Shown here piece after piece: positions 1,353-50,487 of a stretch of 64,000 nt of DNA. The stretch is from the human T2T-CHM13v2.0 reference genome, Homo sapiens. The stretch's first letter is position 1. Each line of letters begins with the position of its first letter. The position numbers and the translations under genes are program-made. Under the pieces are notes generated by a model. The model had not been told where the DNA came from and made no database searches. It saw only the letters and a program-made list of their open reading frames with translations. The stretch is from NCBI RefSeq assembly GCF_009914755.1, contig NC_060925.1. One strand, given 5' to 3'.

Positions 1353-1417
1353 ATGGTGGCAGCAGAGGCAAAGGAGAACATTTCCCTTATGAACAAGAAA
1401 TCAAGTTCTTTGCAAAA
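1353..1417 (+). CDS. RYR2: RYR2 coding exon (~exon 61), 65 nt: (D)GGSRGKGEHFPYEQEIKFFAK
   Basis: Acceptor ctacAG|AT, donor AAA|GTACAG. Translation matches RyR2 and continues in frame into the next exon. Codon CAA at 1394-1396 is Q2958. Confidence 0.95.
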
Positions 1418-3760
1418 GTACAGTATACAATCTATCTTGTTTTTGCTTCAATATGTTTGTTTACATACCCTACTCATTAGATCGTTGCCCTTTTCAGAAC
1501 ATACTTGTCTACAAATGTGTATTTTACTGCACGTAAATATTCTGTGGCATGAAAATAACTGCATGAATCATCTTCCCAGCATTCTTGGTCAGACTTTAAC
1601 TCTGCATTCCCTACCGCATTCCTTCTTCAAATGACTTCATTCTATCTGAGGTTTAATTAGGTCTGCATTTTTTTTGTTTTATCATATGATATGGAATAAA
1701 AAATATCTATTTCTTAACATTTGGATATTGTTATGATTTAAAATTTCTAGTTGAGAATTTCTTTTATAAATAGGAAAGTCTGAGTTAATTCATAAATAGG
1801 CACATTATAAGAACATTTAGTACAGAATATTGTGGGACCTTAGTCCTGCTCATTTTATGGAAGATCAGAGAGGATAAATTGTTTATATACAAAATATATC
1901 CCATTGGTATTATTTATTTTGTTTCATAAGCATTTATCAGGAATTTGCTATATTACTGGAAAATTCATCACTTTTTTCAGCCAAAAAGGGATGGACATGA
2001 AGAGTTGTAAAGTCTCCGAATGATTTAATGCATTTACTTAGTATTTACTGTGTGTCTAGTGTGGGTCAGGCATTAGGGTATGGCCCAGGGATGGCCATGA
2101 ATATACAAATGCCCCTGGGTAAGCTTTCTTGTTTAGGACACCTTGCAGTGAGCCTGAAGACCTAATTACTGCTGTCTGCTTCCTTTTAAAGTACTTGCAT
2201 TCAGCGATTACAGATAATTTGCTATAAATACAACTTTTGTGGACTTTAAAATAGCATGCTTTTTGATTGATGAATATTTGACTTGTAGTATGTTTTCAAA
2301 ATTGTGTTCTTTACTGTAAAACACATTTCTGTTGTCTTTTCTTCCCATTCAATATAGCACTCAGAGTCTGTTCCAATCATTTGAAGATCCAAAGTTTGTC
2401 CTGGGGTGCACATAGTTAGCGATTCATGAATTGATAGATCCATATATATATCTCCGGTCTCTGTGAGATTGTAATCTTTCTTGATAGCCAATTATCAGAA
2501 TGCTGTATTCGCAGCCTCTAATTTTCCCTTTAAAATACATTCTTGTGTTGCCCGTATACTCAGCACCCCCGGTGCATCTGTTTACAGATGCTTAATGTGG
2601 CTTAATTTCTACTAAGTCTATAATTCATTCGTTTACCATATTGAGTACCTACTATGTTCCAGTCACTAAATTCAAGCAATGTCCCAATTGTCAAGGAAGA
2701 GCAATAAAAACTGGTGTAGTCCCCATTATATATAGCTGTGCTCTACCACATGGTAGGAAAAAGAAGTATGTTTAGATAGACATGAGTTTGAATACTGGTA
2801 GTGCCGATCTTGTTCTTGCTATGGGCCCGTCACAGTCCTTAGCACTAGGGATTCAGTGACAAACAGAAGAGACCAGTTAATAGTTCTGGAGGCCAGGAAA
2901 GGGCTATAATGGGAAACAATCCCAGAAATGTTTCTTGTTTTTGTGTAACTCATAGGCTCCTGGAAAGAGAGACTTTAATCCAAAGTCCCACGCATACAAT
3001 GTAAAATTGCAAATGATGTTATCAGAGCTCAGAATGTGGGACTTTATCTAGTTGAGATCAGCAAAGACTTAGCCGGCAAATTGCCACTGAGTTGAGATCT
3101 ACAGGAGGACCAGAGTGAATAGGATATGGAGTATGGGAAGAGCACGCCAGACAGAGGGAATGGCGTGTACGAGGCCAGGTGATGTGAGTGGACAGAGTGA
3201 GGAGGAGGAATTGGCCCAAGGCCAGCAGGATGAAACATGCGTAGAAATGGAAAGTGCACTTTAAGAAAGGCCAGGTTAAAAGAATATTGTGTAGGCAACT
3301 AAGTAGCAATGTGACCTTCGGTAAGTCACACATTTCTATGTCTCCATTTAATACCCATAATGCAGGGATGATGGCATCTACCCTACAGAGCAGTTGCTAT
3401 TATCAGTTGCAATGTTCACACATAGTAGAGACTCAACATATGGTAGTTATGGATTATTTTGGGGTCTGCTGGGCACTGAACTATGTTATATGAAAACATT
3501 GAGAATATTTCATTTTGAGAAAATAGTGAGAATAATTCCAAACTGTTGCAAGTTTGCTCTGTTCACCATAATCACATCCTGCCACTGTGGCTGGAGACGG
3601 TAGAGTGAGATTTAAGAGAGGCATACTATGACGTGCCTGGCATGGACATAAGGAGACCTGTTGCATGTGAACAGAACTCTGACTGCTCCAAAGCCTCAGC
3701 TCCCATTCATCCCCTGAAAGATTCCACTACGTAGATCTGTCTTCTTTTCCTTTCTTTCAG

Positions 3761-21455: not shown

Positions 21456-22263
21456 GAGGAACTGATCATGTCAAACTATATTGTAAGTGGTCAAATTATT
21501 TTGTTACCTTGAATTCATCATTTTATTTGCTTTCTGTATCCCCATTACGAAGAAAAATATATGTAATGCTTTTATCACTCATATTTCTGTACTTCCTTGT
21601 AAAATATGCCAATCAAAATGAGTGAATTTTATATTACTTTCAAGAGGAGTTACTACCATCTGAAAATCTCAGAGGAGTATTATTTAACTTCTTTAGTGTC
21701 TGATTTTTTTTTTACATGACGGTTTGGTGCTTTTTGGTTTTTGCCAAAGACCAATAACATTCAAGGAAATTAATTTACCTTCATGCAATGGAATTCAGGC
21801 AAATTAATTCATCTTAATGCAGTGGGATGAAATAAGAAAGCAGAATTTTTGGTGCAATTAGAATGGAATGAAAATTTTTAAACTTTAAGCCCACCTTATT
21901 TCATAAAGGATATGAGCTGACTTTAAAAGTTTGTAAACAATAAGATTTAAAAATACAGTGAGATGGGAGGGAGAGGGGATTATTGAAAACCTCGGTTAAA
22001 ACTCTTAGTCTGGTGCAGTGCTTTTGAATGCTTCTTGGGCATGTCAGCTATTTGATGAGACATGCTTTATTGCTTTTCTACTTACATTTGCATAACCACT
22101 TTTAAGCAGAAAAACTGCATGATTTCAAACTTGATTATTAAAAAACCTTTTAAAATATTACTCTTGTGTCATTGACTAATTTTTCTAGCACAAATATTGG
22201 TAGAAAAGAAGAACATTGAGAAATTCTCAGGGCAATTTATACAGCATTTTGTTTCCTCTTTAG

Positions 22264-31391: not shown

Positions 31392-32154
31392 TGAAGTTTC
31401 AACAATATTTTATGCCCTGGAAATACTCATATTATGAAGGGAAAAATGGAGAATTTTTAAAACAATGAATTCAGAATGTTATATGTATAATATATATGTA
31501 AATGAATTTATCTACTGATGAAAACTCCAGAAAAATGCAGCAATGACTTATTAATTTGGGTAGATGATTATGGTTGACTTTAACTTTTCTCTTGTATACT
31601 TTTCCCCAGTGCATATATGTTACTTTCAGGGGGAAAAAAGTCATTTTAAAAATGGCCCAATCAAGTTTAGAACTATTATTAACAACTATGGTTATTATTA
31701 AATAAGAGAGCAGTGTTCCATATAATCTAACTCTTCCATTGTGCCAAGGATGGGGATAGTTAAAATGAGATAACTGTATATAGTCTCATGTAGTAATTAT
31801 GTAGCAGAGCTTGTCCCTATTCTAAGGGTTAGGGGAACCTTTTCCATTTGGGAATTTTATTTCTTGTGTGAAAATGATTTCCAAAATGAGTGAAAGTCTT
31901 TTTTTTCATTCTAAATTAGCTATCTATTCTAAAAACAAGGAAGATCGTTGAATTCAACTCAGTAAACATTTTTTTAATGGCAGCTATGCAATTAGAACTT
32001 GGACTAGAAAAATGGCTGAGGCATGAGCTGTACCCTTAAGGAAGTCATGTGCTGGAGAAGGAGGCTTTAATTATGTTACAATTGTAATTACAATCTATCA
32101 TCATGTTAATGAATGGTTTTACAGAGCAGAATACTAATGTCTGTCTTTAAACAG

Positions 32155-46430: not shown

Positions 46431-46565
46431 TTGGAGGATCCTGCTATTAGATGGCAAATGGCTCTTTACAAAGACTTACCAAACAGGACTGATGATACCT
46501 CAGATCCAGAGAAGACGGTAGAAAGAGTATTGGATATAGCAAATGTGCTTTTTCATCTTGAACAG
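46431..46565 (+). CDS. RYR2: RYR2 exon (~74), 135 nt: LEDPAIRWQMALYKDLPN...ANVLFHLEQ
   Basis: Inside ORF 46380..46736; ctgcAG acceptor, CAG|GTCAGG donor. Confidence 0.97.
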
Positions 46566-47487
46566 GTCAGGCTTTGTGTCAATTCAATCATATTTGCCTT
46601 AGCCACATACAAATATTTTAAAAAGAGAATGTGTGTTAATTTGTTAACTATGACCCAAGAAACATATATGTTCAGCATATTCATTCTAAAGAATAAGAGT
46701 CCGGTGTGCTTAGTATTTCATAAAGACAATTTCTAAGCTTATAAATCTTGTAGCAATATATAGATTATATATTTTGGGAGATCCTGGCCTTTGTTTTGTT
46801 GTCTTTTTTCAAATATTTCTGAAAGTATTAGGATTATATTTTTAAATTATTCTAACCAAAAAATTCAGGAGTTACATCTGATTTCAAATACTTTATGCAT
46901 ACTTCATTTTTTAATATTGCTCATAAAAACATGTTTGAGATATTATCTTTTACCGGTTTAATATTTGAAACATTTTCTTTTTTGCCACTTGTTTAACCTT
47001 GCCTTTTATTAGGTATATTTTTGAGCTAATTTTCTCTGAAATCAGGAACAAATTACACTTAGAGAAGAACAATGCATTGATAGATATTAAAATCATGTAA
47101 GAAAAGTGTTTTTATATATTTTTTCAGTTGTGTCCTACTTTACACTACAAAGCTCAGTTTGATATTCATTACCTTTGCACAAGAATGTGTAAAACAAGAA
47201 TACTTGAAACATTATCAATGGGAGGGTCATATTTTTACAGAAGAGATCATCTGGCTTAGGTAAAATATCTGCAACACAGAGATATATTATCTATTTCTCA
47301 TCAAGTCCATTCAGCAAAATAATCACAGTGAAGAAGCTCATTGTAACTTGACCATCTGATCTGTCACAGGGCTCTTATGACAGATCATACTGTTGATGAC
47401 TTGGTTATTTTATACTAAATATAAAATAATAATAAGATGCCCTATGCCATCTCAGGAACTTTGCCACCTAAATGTATGTGTGTGTGC

Positions 47488-47518
<31 letters not shown>

Positions 47519-49560
47519 ATAAATTTCATAGATGATAAATTAAATTATATATATATAATTTTGTATTGCCTTTAGCCATATTTGAACATATTATCATAGC
47601 AATAATAAACATTTTGCTTGTATTCCTGTGAACCCTCACCCCTGCCCTGGACAGTTTAATAATGCAAAGATATCATCTAATGTAGTATCCTTTTAACTTC
47701 CTTCTTGCTTACTCAAATACCCTCCCCCAAACGTTAATAATTTCTCTATTGTCATGCAATTTATCACTACACTTGATGAGATTAAAGTCACTAGGATACC
47801 CTTAAGCTGTATGGCTATTAACATATATTTACGTTATCTAATACCTTGGAACTTAATACTTTCCCCTGAATAACTTACGTAATATTTTCATGAAATATTA
47901 AATAAATACAAATTATCATCAATCAGCAGATGACAAGACTTGTCATGAAATTTTAAGTGATTTATATAAAGTCATAGAGTTTTATCTCCAGAATTATATA
48001 TATATATGTTTAAGATTATTAAAGGTTAATTAAATGGCTACGAGAGGACCATTTCTGACAGCATTGCTCTACCATCAGTTTTTAATTCTTCCTAGTGTTT
48101 ATACATATATATAGATTTGCTTGAATAAATTCTAGATACATTAAATGAAGCTTATAGAAACTGATTCTATTTTATTATATTCCCATATATTCATAAATAT
48201 ATCCAATCATGATGAATGATGGCATTTCTCAAATGAGGTTCACTTTTCTAAGTATCCATTTATGCCTTGGATGTTTATGGAGTTCCCTGTCCTAGGGCAG
48301 CCTTATCCCCAGCAGACCTGGAGGACTGAGTGCTGTAAGAGAGGAAACAGACACTTAAACAGATAAATATGGGATGATACGGAGCTGTTAGGATATAAAA
48401 TGTGCTGAAGAAAGTATAGAAGCAACCCATACTTAATGTAGATATGAAGTAGGTAATCCCTGTATAAGTCTTAAGGTAGGAATTATCTAGAAAAAGTGGG
48501 AGGATCAGAGTTTTTCAAACTGTTAAGAATATGGCGAGATTGGTTTATCATGAGAGGAGGGTTTTGAGTTAAAAGAAATTGTCGATTATCAAAAATAAAA
48601 AGTGGGAGATATCCTCGTGTTTAATTTATGCCTTTAATATCCCTCTGCTAATGATAACATGTGACTGAGTCACAGAGGAGCGTGCAAAGAATATTTTAAC
48701 TTGCAAACGTCAGTGTAAAAAACAGTAGGTGGACAGGAAACACTTGTTGATTTAATTTATCTCAAGTATCAGCAGCCTGTTTTAGATGTATATTTTGTGT
48801 TGTATATCTGGTAAGTTTTCTTATGAGAGTAGGTTATCTCCAATGAATTTTCTAATAATCAAATTCTAGCCAAGCTAACACATCAGCACATCAAGACATT
48901 CAGACAGGGTTACAAGGTACATCTTTGTGTTCGCCTTTGGATCACATATCTCACAGATAACTATTTACTTATCATTGATTTAGAGGAAAGCACACTCAGG
49001 TATTTCCTGAAATACTTTAATAGGCAGGTAATAAAATGCCTGCCAAATGATAAGCTTCCTGGTGGCAGGAACCCTTTTTGTTGGATTTTTACTGTATCTT
49101 AAATGCCTTAGGAACTTAAAATATGTTTGTCAACTGTCACCCATGCTGATCATAATGCTGTAATTCCTGTAAAAAGCTATCATCTACAGACTGGGGTCTC
49201 AAAATGGAAATTTAAATTGAAGTATGTTGGGTCTCATTGAAAACTATTGCCCTTGATTGCTTTTACTTCTATGTTAAAGGCCTAACAGTGGTTTATTTCA
49301 CTTGACACAAGCATCAAGAAGATGATTGAAGTGGATAATTGTCACCACGTGTTTATTGATCATAGAGGGGGAAGAGCATCACAGAAATAAGTGCTTTTCC
49401 GTTAAACAAGTTGCCTCGTGAAAATTTCTAAACCACCGCAGTCCAAACATTTTAAATGTTTACTTCAGACATTATTACAATCATTTTTGACTCTTTACTG
49501 CAAAGGATAATAAATGTAGTTTTACTTTTTTAGCTAACATAACATTTTTATTTCTTTCAG

Positions 49561-49596
49561 AAGTCTAAACGTGTGGGTCGGAGACATTACTGTCTG
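49561..49596 (+). CDS. RYR2: RYR2 exon (~75), 36-nt symmetric cassette: KSKRVGRRHYCL, with non-canonical GG donor
   Basis: Branch-like CTAAC at 49534-49538 and tttctttcAG acceptor. The peptide matches the RyR2 sequence I recall (..FHLEQ-KSKRVGRRHYCL-VEHPQR..), which forces the junction at CTG|GGAAGT. Confidence 0.9.
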
Positions 49597-50286
49597 GGAA
49601 GTACAGTGCTCAATGGCCTAGAGATTACTAATTAATTTAGGTTTATATGTTGGGATTTTTTCTTTCTAATACAATTAATCTCTTTCTTCTCTTAGAGTTC
49701 CAAACACTATTAGTTATATAAATAACTTGCTTGCATCATTTATTGCAACTTTTGAATTTATATTTGTCCCTATCTAACAAAATATTTACATATTTTAACA
49801 TTTTTACCAAATTTACTCACTCCTAATACTGTGTTCACAAAGCGTTGTCTTCTTCTCTTTATCCTGCTGTATTAAAGAATAGTAGAATTTTTATTAACTG
49901 TCTCTTTTTGTGTTTATTACTTTAGCTCTTACAATAAAATTAGTTACAATGGACATATGAATAAGAATGAGGTAATATTTTATGTAGGCAGAAAATATGT
50001 ATTAAAATCATAAAGAACCAAAGAAAATTTTGAGAAGGAGATAAAATGATTTTATATGGAATGATTTTCTATTTCTTTGATTTTAGAGGTGACATAGCTT
50101 TGAAGTACACAGTATTGGGAAAATGTGATATTCTTACTAAGGGAATTATATAGCATTTGCAACTATCTAAATTTTATCTTTGGGTAACTTTTAGGATATG
50201 GACTTCTTCATGATAATCTTAAGGTACTTTTGGAATTGGAATTCCAAATATAGATTACTTAAGAGGGGCAACTGTTTAATACTATA

Positions 50287-50358
50287 TTTTTGAAGATAGT
50301 TTGGGGTGTAAATATTTATTTGTTTTTGAAGGTAGTTTGGGGTGTAAATATTTATTTG
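50287..50358. repeat. 36-bp tandem duplication just upstream of the exon 76 acceptor
   Basis: TTTTTGAAG(A/G)TAGTTTGGGGTGTAAATATTTATTTG, two copies, 1 mismatch. Confidence 0.95.
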
Positions 50359-50374
50359 TGTCATTCTACCTCAG

Positions 50375-50487
50375 GTGGAACATCCTCAGAGATCTAAAAA
50401 GGCTGTATGGCATAAACTACTGTCTAAGCAGAGGAAAAGGGCTGTTGTAGCCTGCTTCCGGATGGCCCCCTTATATAATCTGCCAAG
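50375..50487 (+). CDS. RYR2: RYR2 exon (~76), 113 nt: [37 protein letters not shown](R), the calmodulin-binding domain
   Basis: ctcAG acceptor, AAG|GTCGGA donor. Contains the established RyR calmodulin-binding peptide with anchors W3587, L3591 and F3603. Confidence 0.97.

What the first reader, a model, noticed from the sequence alone, without database searches (positions are those of the whole stretch)
49561..49610. Non-canonical GG 5' splice site (GG-AG intron) on the RYR2-specific 36-nt exon just before the calmodulin-binding domain
Seen: the exon encoding KSKRVGRRHYCL ends at 49596, and the 778-nt intron begins GGAAGTA rather than GT or GC. CTG|GGAAGTA matches the U1 consensus CAG|GTAAGTA at -3, -1, +1 and +3 to +7, but breaks the near-invariant +2 T. 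All 18 other donors in the window are GT. The nearby GT at 49601 would shift the frame, while GTs at 49573 (12-nt exon) and 49606 (45-nt exon) keep it. Known: RYR1 and RYR3 lack this 12-aa insert, and skipping it keeps the frame. I recall reports of an exon-75-lacking non-cardiac RyR2 isoform and of GG-AG splicing here, so this is probably not wholly new (unverified). Inference: a crippled donor makes inclusion depend on tissue factors, which adds a basic, Cys-containing peptide next to the calmodulin site in heart.
Basis: partly seen in the sequence, partly recalled or inferred. Interest (0 to 1): 0.85.

Follow-up and report, generated by a model that had tools for sequence, protein, structure and literature searches.

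The report
Known GG splice donor, RYR2 exon 75
The small heart-type exon 75 of the ryanodine receptor 2 gene really is followed by an intron that starts GG instead of GT, but this oddity, its tissue-specific use and the factor that rescues it are already published.

Summary
Exon 75 of RYR2 (window 49561-49596, 36 nt, KSKRVGRRHYCL) is followed by GGAAGTAC. The other 18 donors in the window are all GT and all 19 acceptors are AG. No placement of the junction that gives the same mRNA uses GT; the only options are GG-CA, GG-AG and GA-GG. Human RyR2 chains in the PDB carry the 12 residues at 3564-3575, directly before the exon 76 residues. RYR1 and RYR3 join the flanking exons directly and show no trace of the exon.

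The finding is already known. [quoted passage not shown] A 2025 preprint shows that exon 75 depends on QKI, and that changing +2G to T or C makes inclusion constitutive. I found a QKI core motif 31 nt into intron 75.

Novelty is nil and interest is low. One gap remains: in the passages and searches I ran, the QKI work and the islet work do not cite each other.

The parts
46431..46565 (+). RYR2 exon 74 (135 nt). Its canonical donor CAG|GTCAGGCT is joined directly to exon 76 in the skipping (islet/neuroendocrine type) isoform.
   Evidence: Annotation. 8 of 16 RefSeq mRNAs join 46565 to 50375.
49534..49538 (+). Branch-point-like CTAAC, with its A 23 nt upstream of the exon 75 acceptor (inferred).
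   Evidence: YTNAY scan of the last 60 nt of intron 74. Direct reading.
49541..49560 (+). Pyrimidine-rich tract and AG acceptor of exon 75 (AACATTTTTATTTCTTTCAG).
   Evidence: 76% pyrimidine, AG acceptor.
49561..49596 (+). RYR2 exon 75, a 36-nt cassette exon in phase 0-0. It encodes KSKRVGRRHYCL (5 K/R, 1 H, 1 C, no acidic residue), which is residues 3564-3575 of the human protein.
49594..49604 (+). Non-canonical 5' splice site CTG|GGAAGTAC, with +2G at 49598. It matches 8 of 11 positions of the U1-complementary consensus.
   Evidence: Literature.
49597..50374 (+). Intron 75, 778 nt, GG-AG, of U2 type.
   Evidence: no U12 donor or branch motif. Reviews describe a 0.8 kbp intron.
49627..49636 (+). 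QKI core motif ACTAAT immediately followed by TAAT, at +31 to +40 of intron 75. It is the candidate site through which QKI activates the weak donor. The assignment of this site is my inference.
   Evidence: exon 75 is the only one of 19 exons in the window with a + strand ACTAAY within 100 nt downstream. QKI dependence and intronic eCLIP signal next to the 5' splice site come.
50375..50487 (+). RYR2 exon 76, which encodes [37 protein letters not shown], the calmodulin-binding region.
   Evidence: The short RyR peptide chains 2bcx_B, 6y4o_B and 6xxf_BBB align inside it. That these are calmodulin complexes is recalled, not shown by the tool.

Best explanation
This is a genuine, conserved U2-type GG-AG intron, intron 75 of RYR2, downstream of a 36-nt cassette exon. 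Apart from the G at +2 the donor is a good site, with contiguous consensus matches from +3 to +7, and the acceptor and branch region are ordinary. The +2G cripples the donor enough that the very short exon is skipped by default. Exon 74 is then joined to exon 76, giving the islet/neuroendocrine type RyR2 that lacks 12 residues. Where the RNA-binding protein QKI is active (cardiomyocytes, and HEK293 cells in minigene assays), QKI bound in the intron just downstream of the donor rescues use of the GG site, according to the preprint by reinforcing U6/tri-snRNP engagement. The exon is then included, which inserts a basic, Cys-containing 12-mer (residues 3564-3575) seven residues before the calmodulin-binding peptide.

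Shown here: the sequence anatomy, the absence of any GT alternative, the absence of the exon from the paralogues, and the QKI core motif at +31.

Shown in the literature: gg in rat, mouse and human; the tissue pattern; QKI dependence; and loss of that dependence with +2T or +2C.

Inferred: that 49627-49636 is the QKI site, and that scarcity of QKI explains the skipping in neuroendocrine tissue.
For: - Donor and junction.
- Protein-level junction. All 10 distinct RyR2 sequences in the PDB have a 12-residue gap between the exon 74 and exon 76 matches. Every RyR1 and RyR3 chain with matches to both exons (9 distinct RyR1 sequences and 1 RyR3) has a gap of 0.
- Annotated skipping in 8 of 16 mRNAs.
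- Paralogue introns of 472 and 521 nt are GT-AG and show no exon-75-like sequence. Alignment scores were 13-21 against shuffle means of 15-17 and shuffle maxima of 21-27. Peptide scores were at most 24 against a self-score of 67.
- No U12 motifs.
- Published gg donor in three species and the tissue pattern: PMC9033130 (passages and section 7) and PMC8553518 (passages).
- gg-to-gt editing in a human insulin-producing cell line lowered glucose-induced insulin secretion: which cites a meeting abstract I did not see.
- QKI dependence (delta-PSI above 0.9 in cardiomyocytes) and minigenes with +2T and +2C: bioRxiv 10.1101/2025.09.04.674271 (passages).
- RYR2 mis-splicing after QKI loss in mouse heart and in hESC-derived cardiomyocytes: PMC10202634 and PMC7782589. 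The passages I saw do not name the exon.
- QKI core motif at +31: it is the only one within 100 nt downstream of any of the 19 exons. The + strand density is 1 per 3200 nt.
Against: - The QKI mechanism rests on a preprint, of which I read passages only.
- I did not see eCLIP coordinates, so the assignment of the site to 49627-49636 is my inference.
- The motif does not meet the strict bipartite definition ACTAAY-N1-20-TAAY, because the spacing is 0.
- ACTAAY is not enriched in the window as a whole: 44 were found against about 92 expected from shuffles.
- A fold of the exon and donor region is no more stable than shuffles (z = -0.91), so structure adds nothing.
- No cross-species DNA could be examined here. 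Conservation of +2G beyond rat, mouse and human is untested.
- I saw no passage giving QKI levels in unstimulated islet cells or neurons.
Confidence: 0.85

Rival explanations
1. The +2G is an assembly error or a private variant of the T2T-CHM13 haplotype, and the normal allele is GT.
For: None from any call. It is only the prior that GG donors are very rare.
Against: Reviews state that the donor is gg in rat, mouse and human genes studied independently of this assembly. The preprint's human minigene also carries +2G as wild type.
Confidence: 0.01
2. The junction is misannotated. The real donor is a nearby GT (49573, 49592, 49601 or 49606) and the protein differs from the annotated one.
For: GT dinucleotides exist at those places. 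Non-canonical junctions are a known source of misalignment (PMC4176328 passages).
Against: No shift of the junction from -6 to +6 reproduces the mRNA with a GT donor. Human RyR2 chains in the PDB read KSKRVGRRHYCL at 3564-3575, followed at 3576 by the exon 76 residues, which fits only the annotated junction. The nearby GTs match just 3-5 of 11 consensus positions. No RefSeq model uses them.
Confidence: 0.01
3. The intron is removed by the minor (U12-type) spliceosome, or the G is edited to U in the RNA before splicing.
For: Some non-canonical introns are U12-like (PMC4176328 passages).
Against: There is no RTATCCTT-like donor and no TCCTTRAY-like branch site in the last 60 nt. The donor resembles the U2-type consensus at 8 of 11 positions. 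No G-to-U editing is known (established knowledge, not tested here). The changed behaviour of the +2T minigene shows that G and T are read differently.
Confidence: 0.01
4. The GG donor is used 'parasitically'. A neighbouring canonical GT (49592, 5 nt upstream, or 49601, 4 nt downstream) recruits U1, and cleavage then happens at the GG site, as reported for the GA donor of the FGFR genes. In this view QKI is only a helper.
For: GTs lie 5 nt upstream and 4 nt downstream of the cleavage site. A dependence of the FGFR GA site on a GT 6 nt upstream is described in PMC4176328 and PMC7072748 (passages).
Against: Those GTs match only 3 and 4 of 11 consensus positions, whereas the GG site itself matches 8 of 11, so U1 should prefer the GG register. 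The preprint attributes the rescue to QKI and U6.
Confidence: 0.08
5. The skipping in brain, islets, pituitary and adrenal is set mainly by factors other than QKI. Candidates are loss of PTBP1 acting on the CU-rich tract at 49680-49693, or a neuronal repressor.
For: There are 10 TCTT/CTCT words in the first 300 nt of intron 75, 6 of them at 49680-49690. The published tissue pattern is neuroendocrine versus heart, vessel and kidney. I saw no measurement of QKI in unstimulated islet cells.
Against: No RBFOX GCATG motif lies within 300 nt on either side of exon 75. QKI loss alone gives delta-PSI above 0.9 in cardiomyocytes. The motif counts are uncontrolled and short motifs are common in AT-rich introns.
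Confidence: 0.2

Closest known systems
RYR2 intron 75 gg/ag splicing, heart-type versus islet-type RyR2 (pmid 20471962, seen only as cited in PMC9033130 and PMC8553518)
   Same: It is the same locus and the same feature: a gg donor, a 12-residue exon 75, an intron of about 0.8 kb, inclusion in heart and skipping in islets and brain.
   Different: Nothing differs. This window is the human copy of that published feature.
[quoted passage not shown]
   Same: A short cassette exon, intronic QKI binding just downstream of the donor, and skipping on QKI loss. A QKI core motif lies at +31.
   Different: NIN exon 18 has a canonical GT with poor U6 complementarity. RYR2 exon 75 has good U6 complementarity (4 potential pairs, per the preprint) but a non-canonical +2G. 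In NIN, +2T>G or +2T>A could not be rescued.
GA-AG introns of the FGFR genes (as described in PMC4176328 and PMC7072748)
   Same: A conserved U2-type intron with a purine at +2, used efficiently in the right context, with otherwise good donor consensus and help from downstream intronic elements.
   Different: The +2 base is A, not G. That case is reported to depend on a canonical GT 6 nt upstream, and no such dependence is shown for RYR2.
CPSF3 GG-AG junction, testis-specific (PMC4176328)
   Same: A natural human GG-AG junction with strong tissue specificity.
   Different: It is a different gene, was not in GENCODE at the time, and no regulator is named. RYR2 does not occur in the main text of that survey (0 occurrences).

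Membership tests
U2-type non-canonical GG-AG intron | Intron ends are GG and AG when the mRNA or protein is aligned to the genome, with no canonical alternative. | tested here: met
   only GG-CA, GG-AG and GA-GG reproduce the junction; the protein reads L3575 then V3576.
U2-type non-canonical GG-AG intron | U2-like consensus at the other donor positions, and a pyrimidine tract plus branch site at the 3' end. | tested here: met
   8 of 11 donor positions match, and the tract before the exon 76 acceptor is 76% pyrimidine; the only YTNAY branch-like words in the last 60 nt are TTTAT at -20 and -56.
U2-type non-canonical GG-AG intron | The junction is actually used in vivo. | not testable with these tools
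Literature: RT-PCR and cDNA in rat, mouse and human and minigenes.
U12-type (minor) intron | Donor /RTATCCTT and branch site TCCTTRAY near the 3' end. | tested here: not met
   neither motif is present.
QKI-activated cassette exon | ACUAAY core in the intron shortly downstream of the 5' splice site. | tested here: met
   ACTAAT at 49627, which is +31. It is the only such case among the 19 exons.
QKI-activated cassette exon | Bipartite element ACUAAY-N1-20-UAAY. | tested here: inconclusive
   The TAAT follows with spacing 0 (49633-49636), just outside the N1-20 definition quoted. My pattern allowed N0-20.
QKI-activated cassette exon | QKI binding at the site, and exon skipping on QKI loss. | not testable with these tools
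   Literature only: eCLIP signal flanking the 5' splice site and delta-PSI above 0.9.
FGFR-type 'dead-end' purine +2 donor dependent on an adjacent GT | Use of the non-canonical site requires a canonical GT a few nt upstream. | not tested
   A GT exists 5 nt upstream (49592) but matches only 3 of 11 positions. The dependence needs a minigene.

The most novel reading that the evidence does not exclude
The level of QKI is the single switch between the 'heart-type' and the 'islet/neuroendocrine-type' RyR2, acting through the ACUAAU element at +31 of intron 75 on the GG donor. Neurons and endocrine cells skip exon 75 because they have little QKI. A rise of QKI in beta cells would then push RYR2 towards the exon-75-containing form, which two meeting abstracts link to poorer insulin secretion. 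QKI protein is reported as upregulated after interferon-alpha in human beta cells (PMC7244579). In what I searched, the QKI literature and the islet literature are not connected. The preprint has 0 occurrences of 'islet' or of the first author of the 2010 paper, and no paper in the library holds QKI together with 'exon 75' and 'islet'. Exon 4 is co-skipped in the islet type, and it also has a bipartite ACTAAC-N10-TAAT at +112 and a TGCATG at +44 of its downstream intron.
Probability: 0.35. Interest if true: 0.4.

Novelty: already known. Interest (0 to 1): 0.15.

Why it matters
This is one of very few natural human introns that break the +2T rule, and it sits in a major cardiac disease gene, next to the calmodulin-binding site of the calcium release channel. 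It shows how a deliberately crippled splice site can put a coding choice under the control of one RNA-binding protein. That point has already been made in print, from 2010 for the donor and the isoforms and in 2025 for the mechanism, so this window adds no discovery.

Two practical points follow. Aligners and variant interpreters that assume GT/GC donors will mishandle this junction. A +2G>T change here would not be benign: by the published minigene and cell-editing data it would force exon inclusion in tissues that normally skip the exon.

Tried and rejected
- **RNA structure.** I folded 49541-49660 as RNA. The minimum free energy was -25.1 kcal/mol, z = -0.91, and 35 of 200 shuffles folded at least as well. 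There is no evidence that structure presents the donor.
- **Repeat origin of the exon.** Exon 75 is not inside a masked repeat; the nearest is 49988-50087. Exonisation of a repeat is therefore not supported at this resolution. The table lists only repeats of 100 bases or more and gives no family names.
- **Vestigial exon in the paralogues.** DNA and peptide alignments of exon 75 with its flanks against the RYR3 and RYR1 introns scored within the range of shuffles.
- **The 12 residues in non-human RyR2 structures.** The 24-residue query (the exon plus in-frame intron codons with no stop) found only the 5 human-length (4967-residue) sequences at E up to 10, plus two chance hits to a pectin lyase. 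The 4968- and 4966-residue RyR2 chains have a 12-residue spacer, but I could not read its letters. My recollection that these are pig and mouse comes from no call.
- **Orthologues beyond mammals.** I did not run the search for homologous proteins. Exon-sized queries can only reach proteins of 0.55-1.75 times their length, joined sequences may not be typed, and a read-through by reference is not accepted. The genome collections on offer are microbial. Conservation of +2G and of the QKI motif across vertebrates is therefore untested here.
- **Survey literature.** PMC4176328 has 0 occurrences of RYR2 or 'ryanodine' in its main text. Its supplementary list of 184 sites was closed, so I cannot say whether RYR2 is in it.
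- **QKI in beta cells.** In PMC12714141 the two 'QKI' hits were the name of a reagent supplier, which told me nothing.
- **Other regulator motifs.** No GCATG lies within 300 nt of exon 75. The counts for YGCY, YCAY, TGT-rich words and G-runs are unremarkable and uncontrolled.

Full report
**What is in the sequence.** The annotated exon at 49561-49596 is exon 75 of NM_001035.3, which has 105 exons. It is 36 nt, in phase 0-0, and encodes KSKRVGRRHYCL: five K/R, one H, one C and no acidic residue. The intron that follows (49597-50374, 778 nt) begins GGAAGTAC and ends CCTCAG. In a table of all 19 annotated exons of the window, the other 18 donors are GT and all 19 acceptors are AG. The exon 75 donor CTG|GGAAGTAC matches the U1-complementary consensus (a recalled short motif) at 8 of 11 positions: -3, -1, +1 and +3 to +7. 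That is more than 12 of the 18 canonical donors in the window, equal to 3 and fewer than 3. So only the +2 position is aberrant. The acceptor side of exon 75 is ordinary, with a CTAAC whose A lies 23 nt upstream of the AG and a pyrimidine-rich tract.

**Is the junction really non-canonical?** I slid the junction from -6 to +6. Only three placements reproduce the mRNA: GG-CA, GG-AG and GA-GG. None uses GT or GC. They match only 3-5 of 11 consensus positions, and no RefSeq model uses them. At the protein level, the 5 distinct 4967-residue RyR2 sequences in the PDB carry the 12 residues at 3564-3575. The exon 74 residues end at 3563 and the exon 76 residues start at 3576. The intron has no U12-type donor or branch motif.

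**Is the exon specific to RYR2?** Searching the window's own genome with the exon 74 and exon 76 translations found RYR3 on C15 and RYR1 on C19. That these loci are RYR3 and RYR1 is inferred from chromosome and similarity. In both, the two exons are separated by a single GT-AG intron, of 472 and 521 nt, against 3809 nt in RYR2. Neither intron contains anything like exon 75. DNA local scores were 13-21, against shuffle means of 15-17 and maxima of 21-27. Peptide scores were at most 24, against a self-score of 67. In the PDB, all 10 distinct RyR2 sequences (4966-4968 residues) have a 12-residue gap between the two matches. Every RyR1 and RyR3 chain that matched both exons has a gap of 0. The exon ends 7 residues before the RyR2 peptide K3583-F3603 that has been crystallised on its own: 6xxf aligns to residues 8-28 of exon 76.

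**Alternative use.** Of the 16 RefSeq RYR2 mRNAs that span the region, 8 include exon 75 and 8 join 46565 directly to 50375.

**What is already published on the donor and the isoforms.** A review, PMC9033130 (passages; section 7 read), and a second, PMC8553518 (passages), make the following statements:

- In intron 75 of the RyR2 gene the donor 'gt' is replaced by 'gg' in rat, mouse and human. The introns are about 1.0 kb in rat and 0.8 kb in human.
- All other RyR2 splice sites obey gt/ag.
- The cardiac type, containing exons 4 and 75, is found in atrium, ventricle and kidney.
- The 'islet type', lacking both exons, is found in islets, cerebrum, cerebellum, pituitary and adrenal.
- The islet type gives more caffeine-evoked Ca2+ release after cADPR in HEK293 cells.
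- Editing gg to gt in a human insulin-producing line lowered glucose-induced insulin secretion and proinsulin synthesis.

These reviews credit a 2010 paper (pmid 20471962), a 2017 review and a 2020 meeting abstract, none of which I saw. A third review, PMC12109991 (passages), cites a 2024 meeting abstract reporting impaired insulin secretion in mice that express exon-75-containing RyR2. One claim in these reviews is outdated: that 'gg' donors are otherwise unreported in health. PMC4176328 (passages) reports a testis-specific GG-AG junction in CPSF3.

**How it works.** Scanning the flanks for regulator motifs, I found a QKI core ACTAAT at 49627, which is +31 of intron 75, immediately followed by TAAT. 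On the + strand ACTAAY occurs 20 times in 64 kb, and exon 75 is the only one of the 19 exons with one within 100 nt downstream. The motif is not enriched in the window overall (44 found against about 92 expected). The spacing of 0 also falls just outside the N1-20 bipartite definition.

A literature search then showed that the mechanism is already worked out. The source is bioRxiv 10.1101/2025.09.04.674271 (passages). It reports:

- QKI eCLIP signal flanks the 5' splice site of the RYR2 exon.
- Delta-PSI is above 0.9 on QKI knockout in cardiomyocytes.
- The authors explicitly recognise the non-canonical +2G.
- The wild-type minigene exon needs QKI.
- Minigenes with +2T or +2C are included regardless of QKI.
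- A +2T construct with weakened U6 pairing becomes QKI-dependent again.

Earlier QKI-loss studies in mouse heart (PMC10202634, passages) and in hESC-derived cardiomyocytes (PMC7782589, passages) list RYR2 among the mis-spliced genes. The passages I saw do not name the exon.

**What remains open.** I could not examine other vertebrate genomes, sequencing reads or paper supplements, so three things are untested here: conservation beyond three mammals, quantitative junction use, and whether survey lists include RYR2. The assignment of the QKI site to 49627-49636 is my inference.

The QKI work and the islet work appear unconnected. The preprint has 0 occurrences of 'islet' or of the first author of the 2010 paper. 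The listing shows 0 QKI occurrences in the three islet reviews, and no paper in the library combines QKI, 'exon 75' and 'islet'. The library lacks most subscription journals, so this is not proof that the link is absent from print.

A modest new hypothesis follows: QKI abundance is the switch between the heart-type and islet-type RyR2. Exon 4, which is co-skipped in the islet type, has a canonical GT donor. Its downstream intron carries TGCATG at +44 and ACTAAC-N10-TAAT at +112. One paper reports QKI protein upregulated by interferon-alpha in human beta cells (PMC7244579, passage).

**Verdict.** The novelty class is 'already known'. Interest is low because nothing is new, although the feature itself is a real and elegant rarity.

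Noticed in passing
window 50287-50359: A 36-nt unit is tandemly duplicated (2.0 copies, 97% matches, score 139). It ends 15 nt before the acceptor AG of exon 76, so the region where the branch site of intron 75 should lie is partly duplicated.
   Followed up: no
L007 401-552 (G000:C1:236767419-236767570, RYR2 exon 4 and the start of intron 4): The other 'islet-type' cassette exon, exon 4, is 21 nt and has a canonical donor TGG|GTATGTGT. Downstream it has a TGCATG (RBFOX-type word) at +44 and a bipartite QKI-type ACTAAC-N10-TAAT at +112. By the density in the window, a + strand ACTAAY within 300 nt has roughly a 1 in 10 chance.
   Followed up: partly
RYR2 RefSeq models (chr1 annotation): [quoted passage not shown] One of 16 lacks exon 4 but keeps exon 75, and 8 of 16 lack exon 75 but keep exon 4. 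The published islet type lacks both.
   Followed up: no
window 46566-50374 versus L002 1026-1497 and L003 977-1497: The interval between exons 74 and 76 is 3809 nt in RYR2 but only 472 nt in RYR3 and 521 nt in RYR1. The RYR2-specific exon sits in a much expanded intron.
   Followed up: partly
window 49680-49693: A CU-rich tract (tctctttcttctct, 6 overlapping TCTT/CTCT words) lies 84-97 nt downstream of the GG donor. It is a possible PTB-type element. The count is uncontrolled.
   Followed up: no
window 1415-1425 (donor of exon 61): The donor AAA|GTACAGTA matches only 4 of 11 consensus positions. It is the weakest canonical donor in the window.
   Followed up: no
window 32133-32138 and 22175-22180: There are + strand ACTAAT words 22 nt upstream of exon 69, probably its branch site, and 89 nt upstream of exon 64. 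QKI motifs upstream of an exon are described as repressive in the preprint.
   Followed up: no
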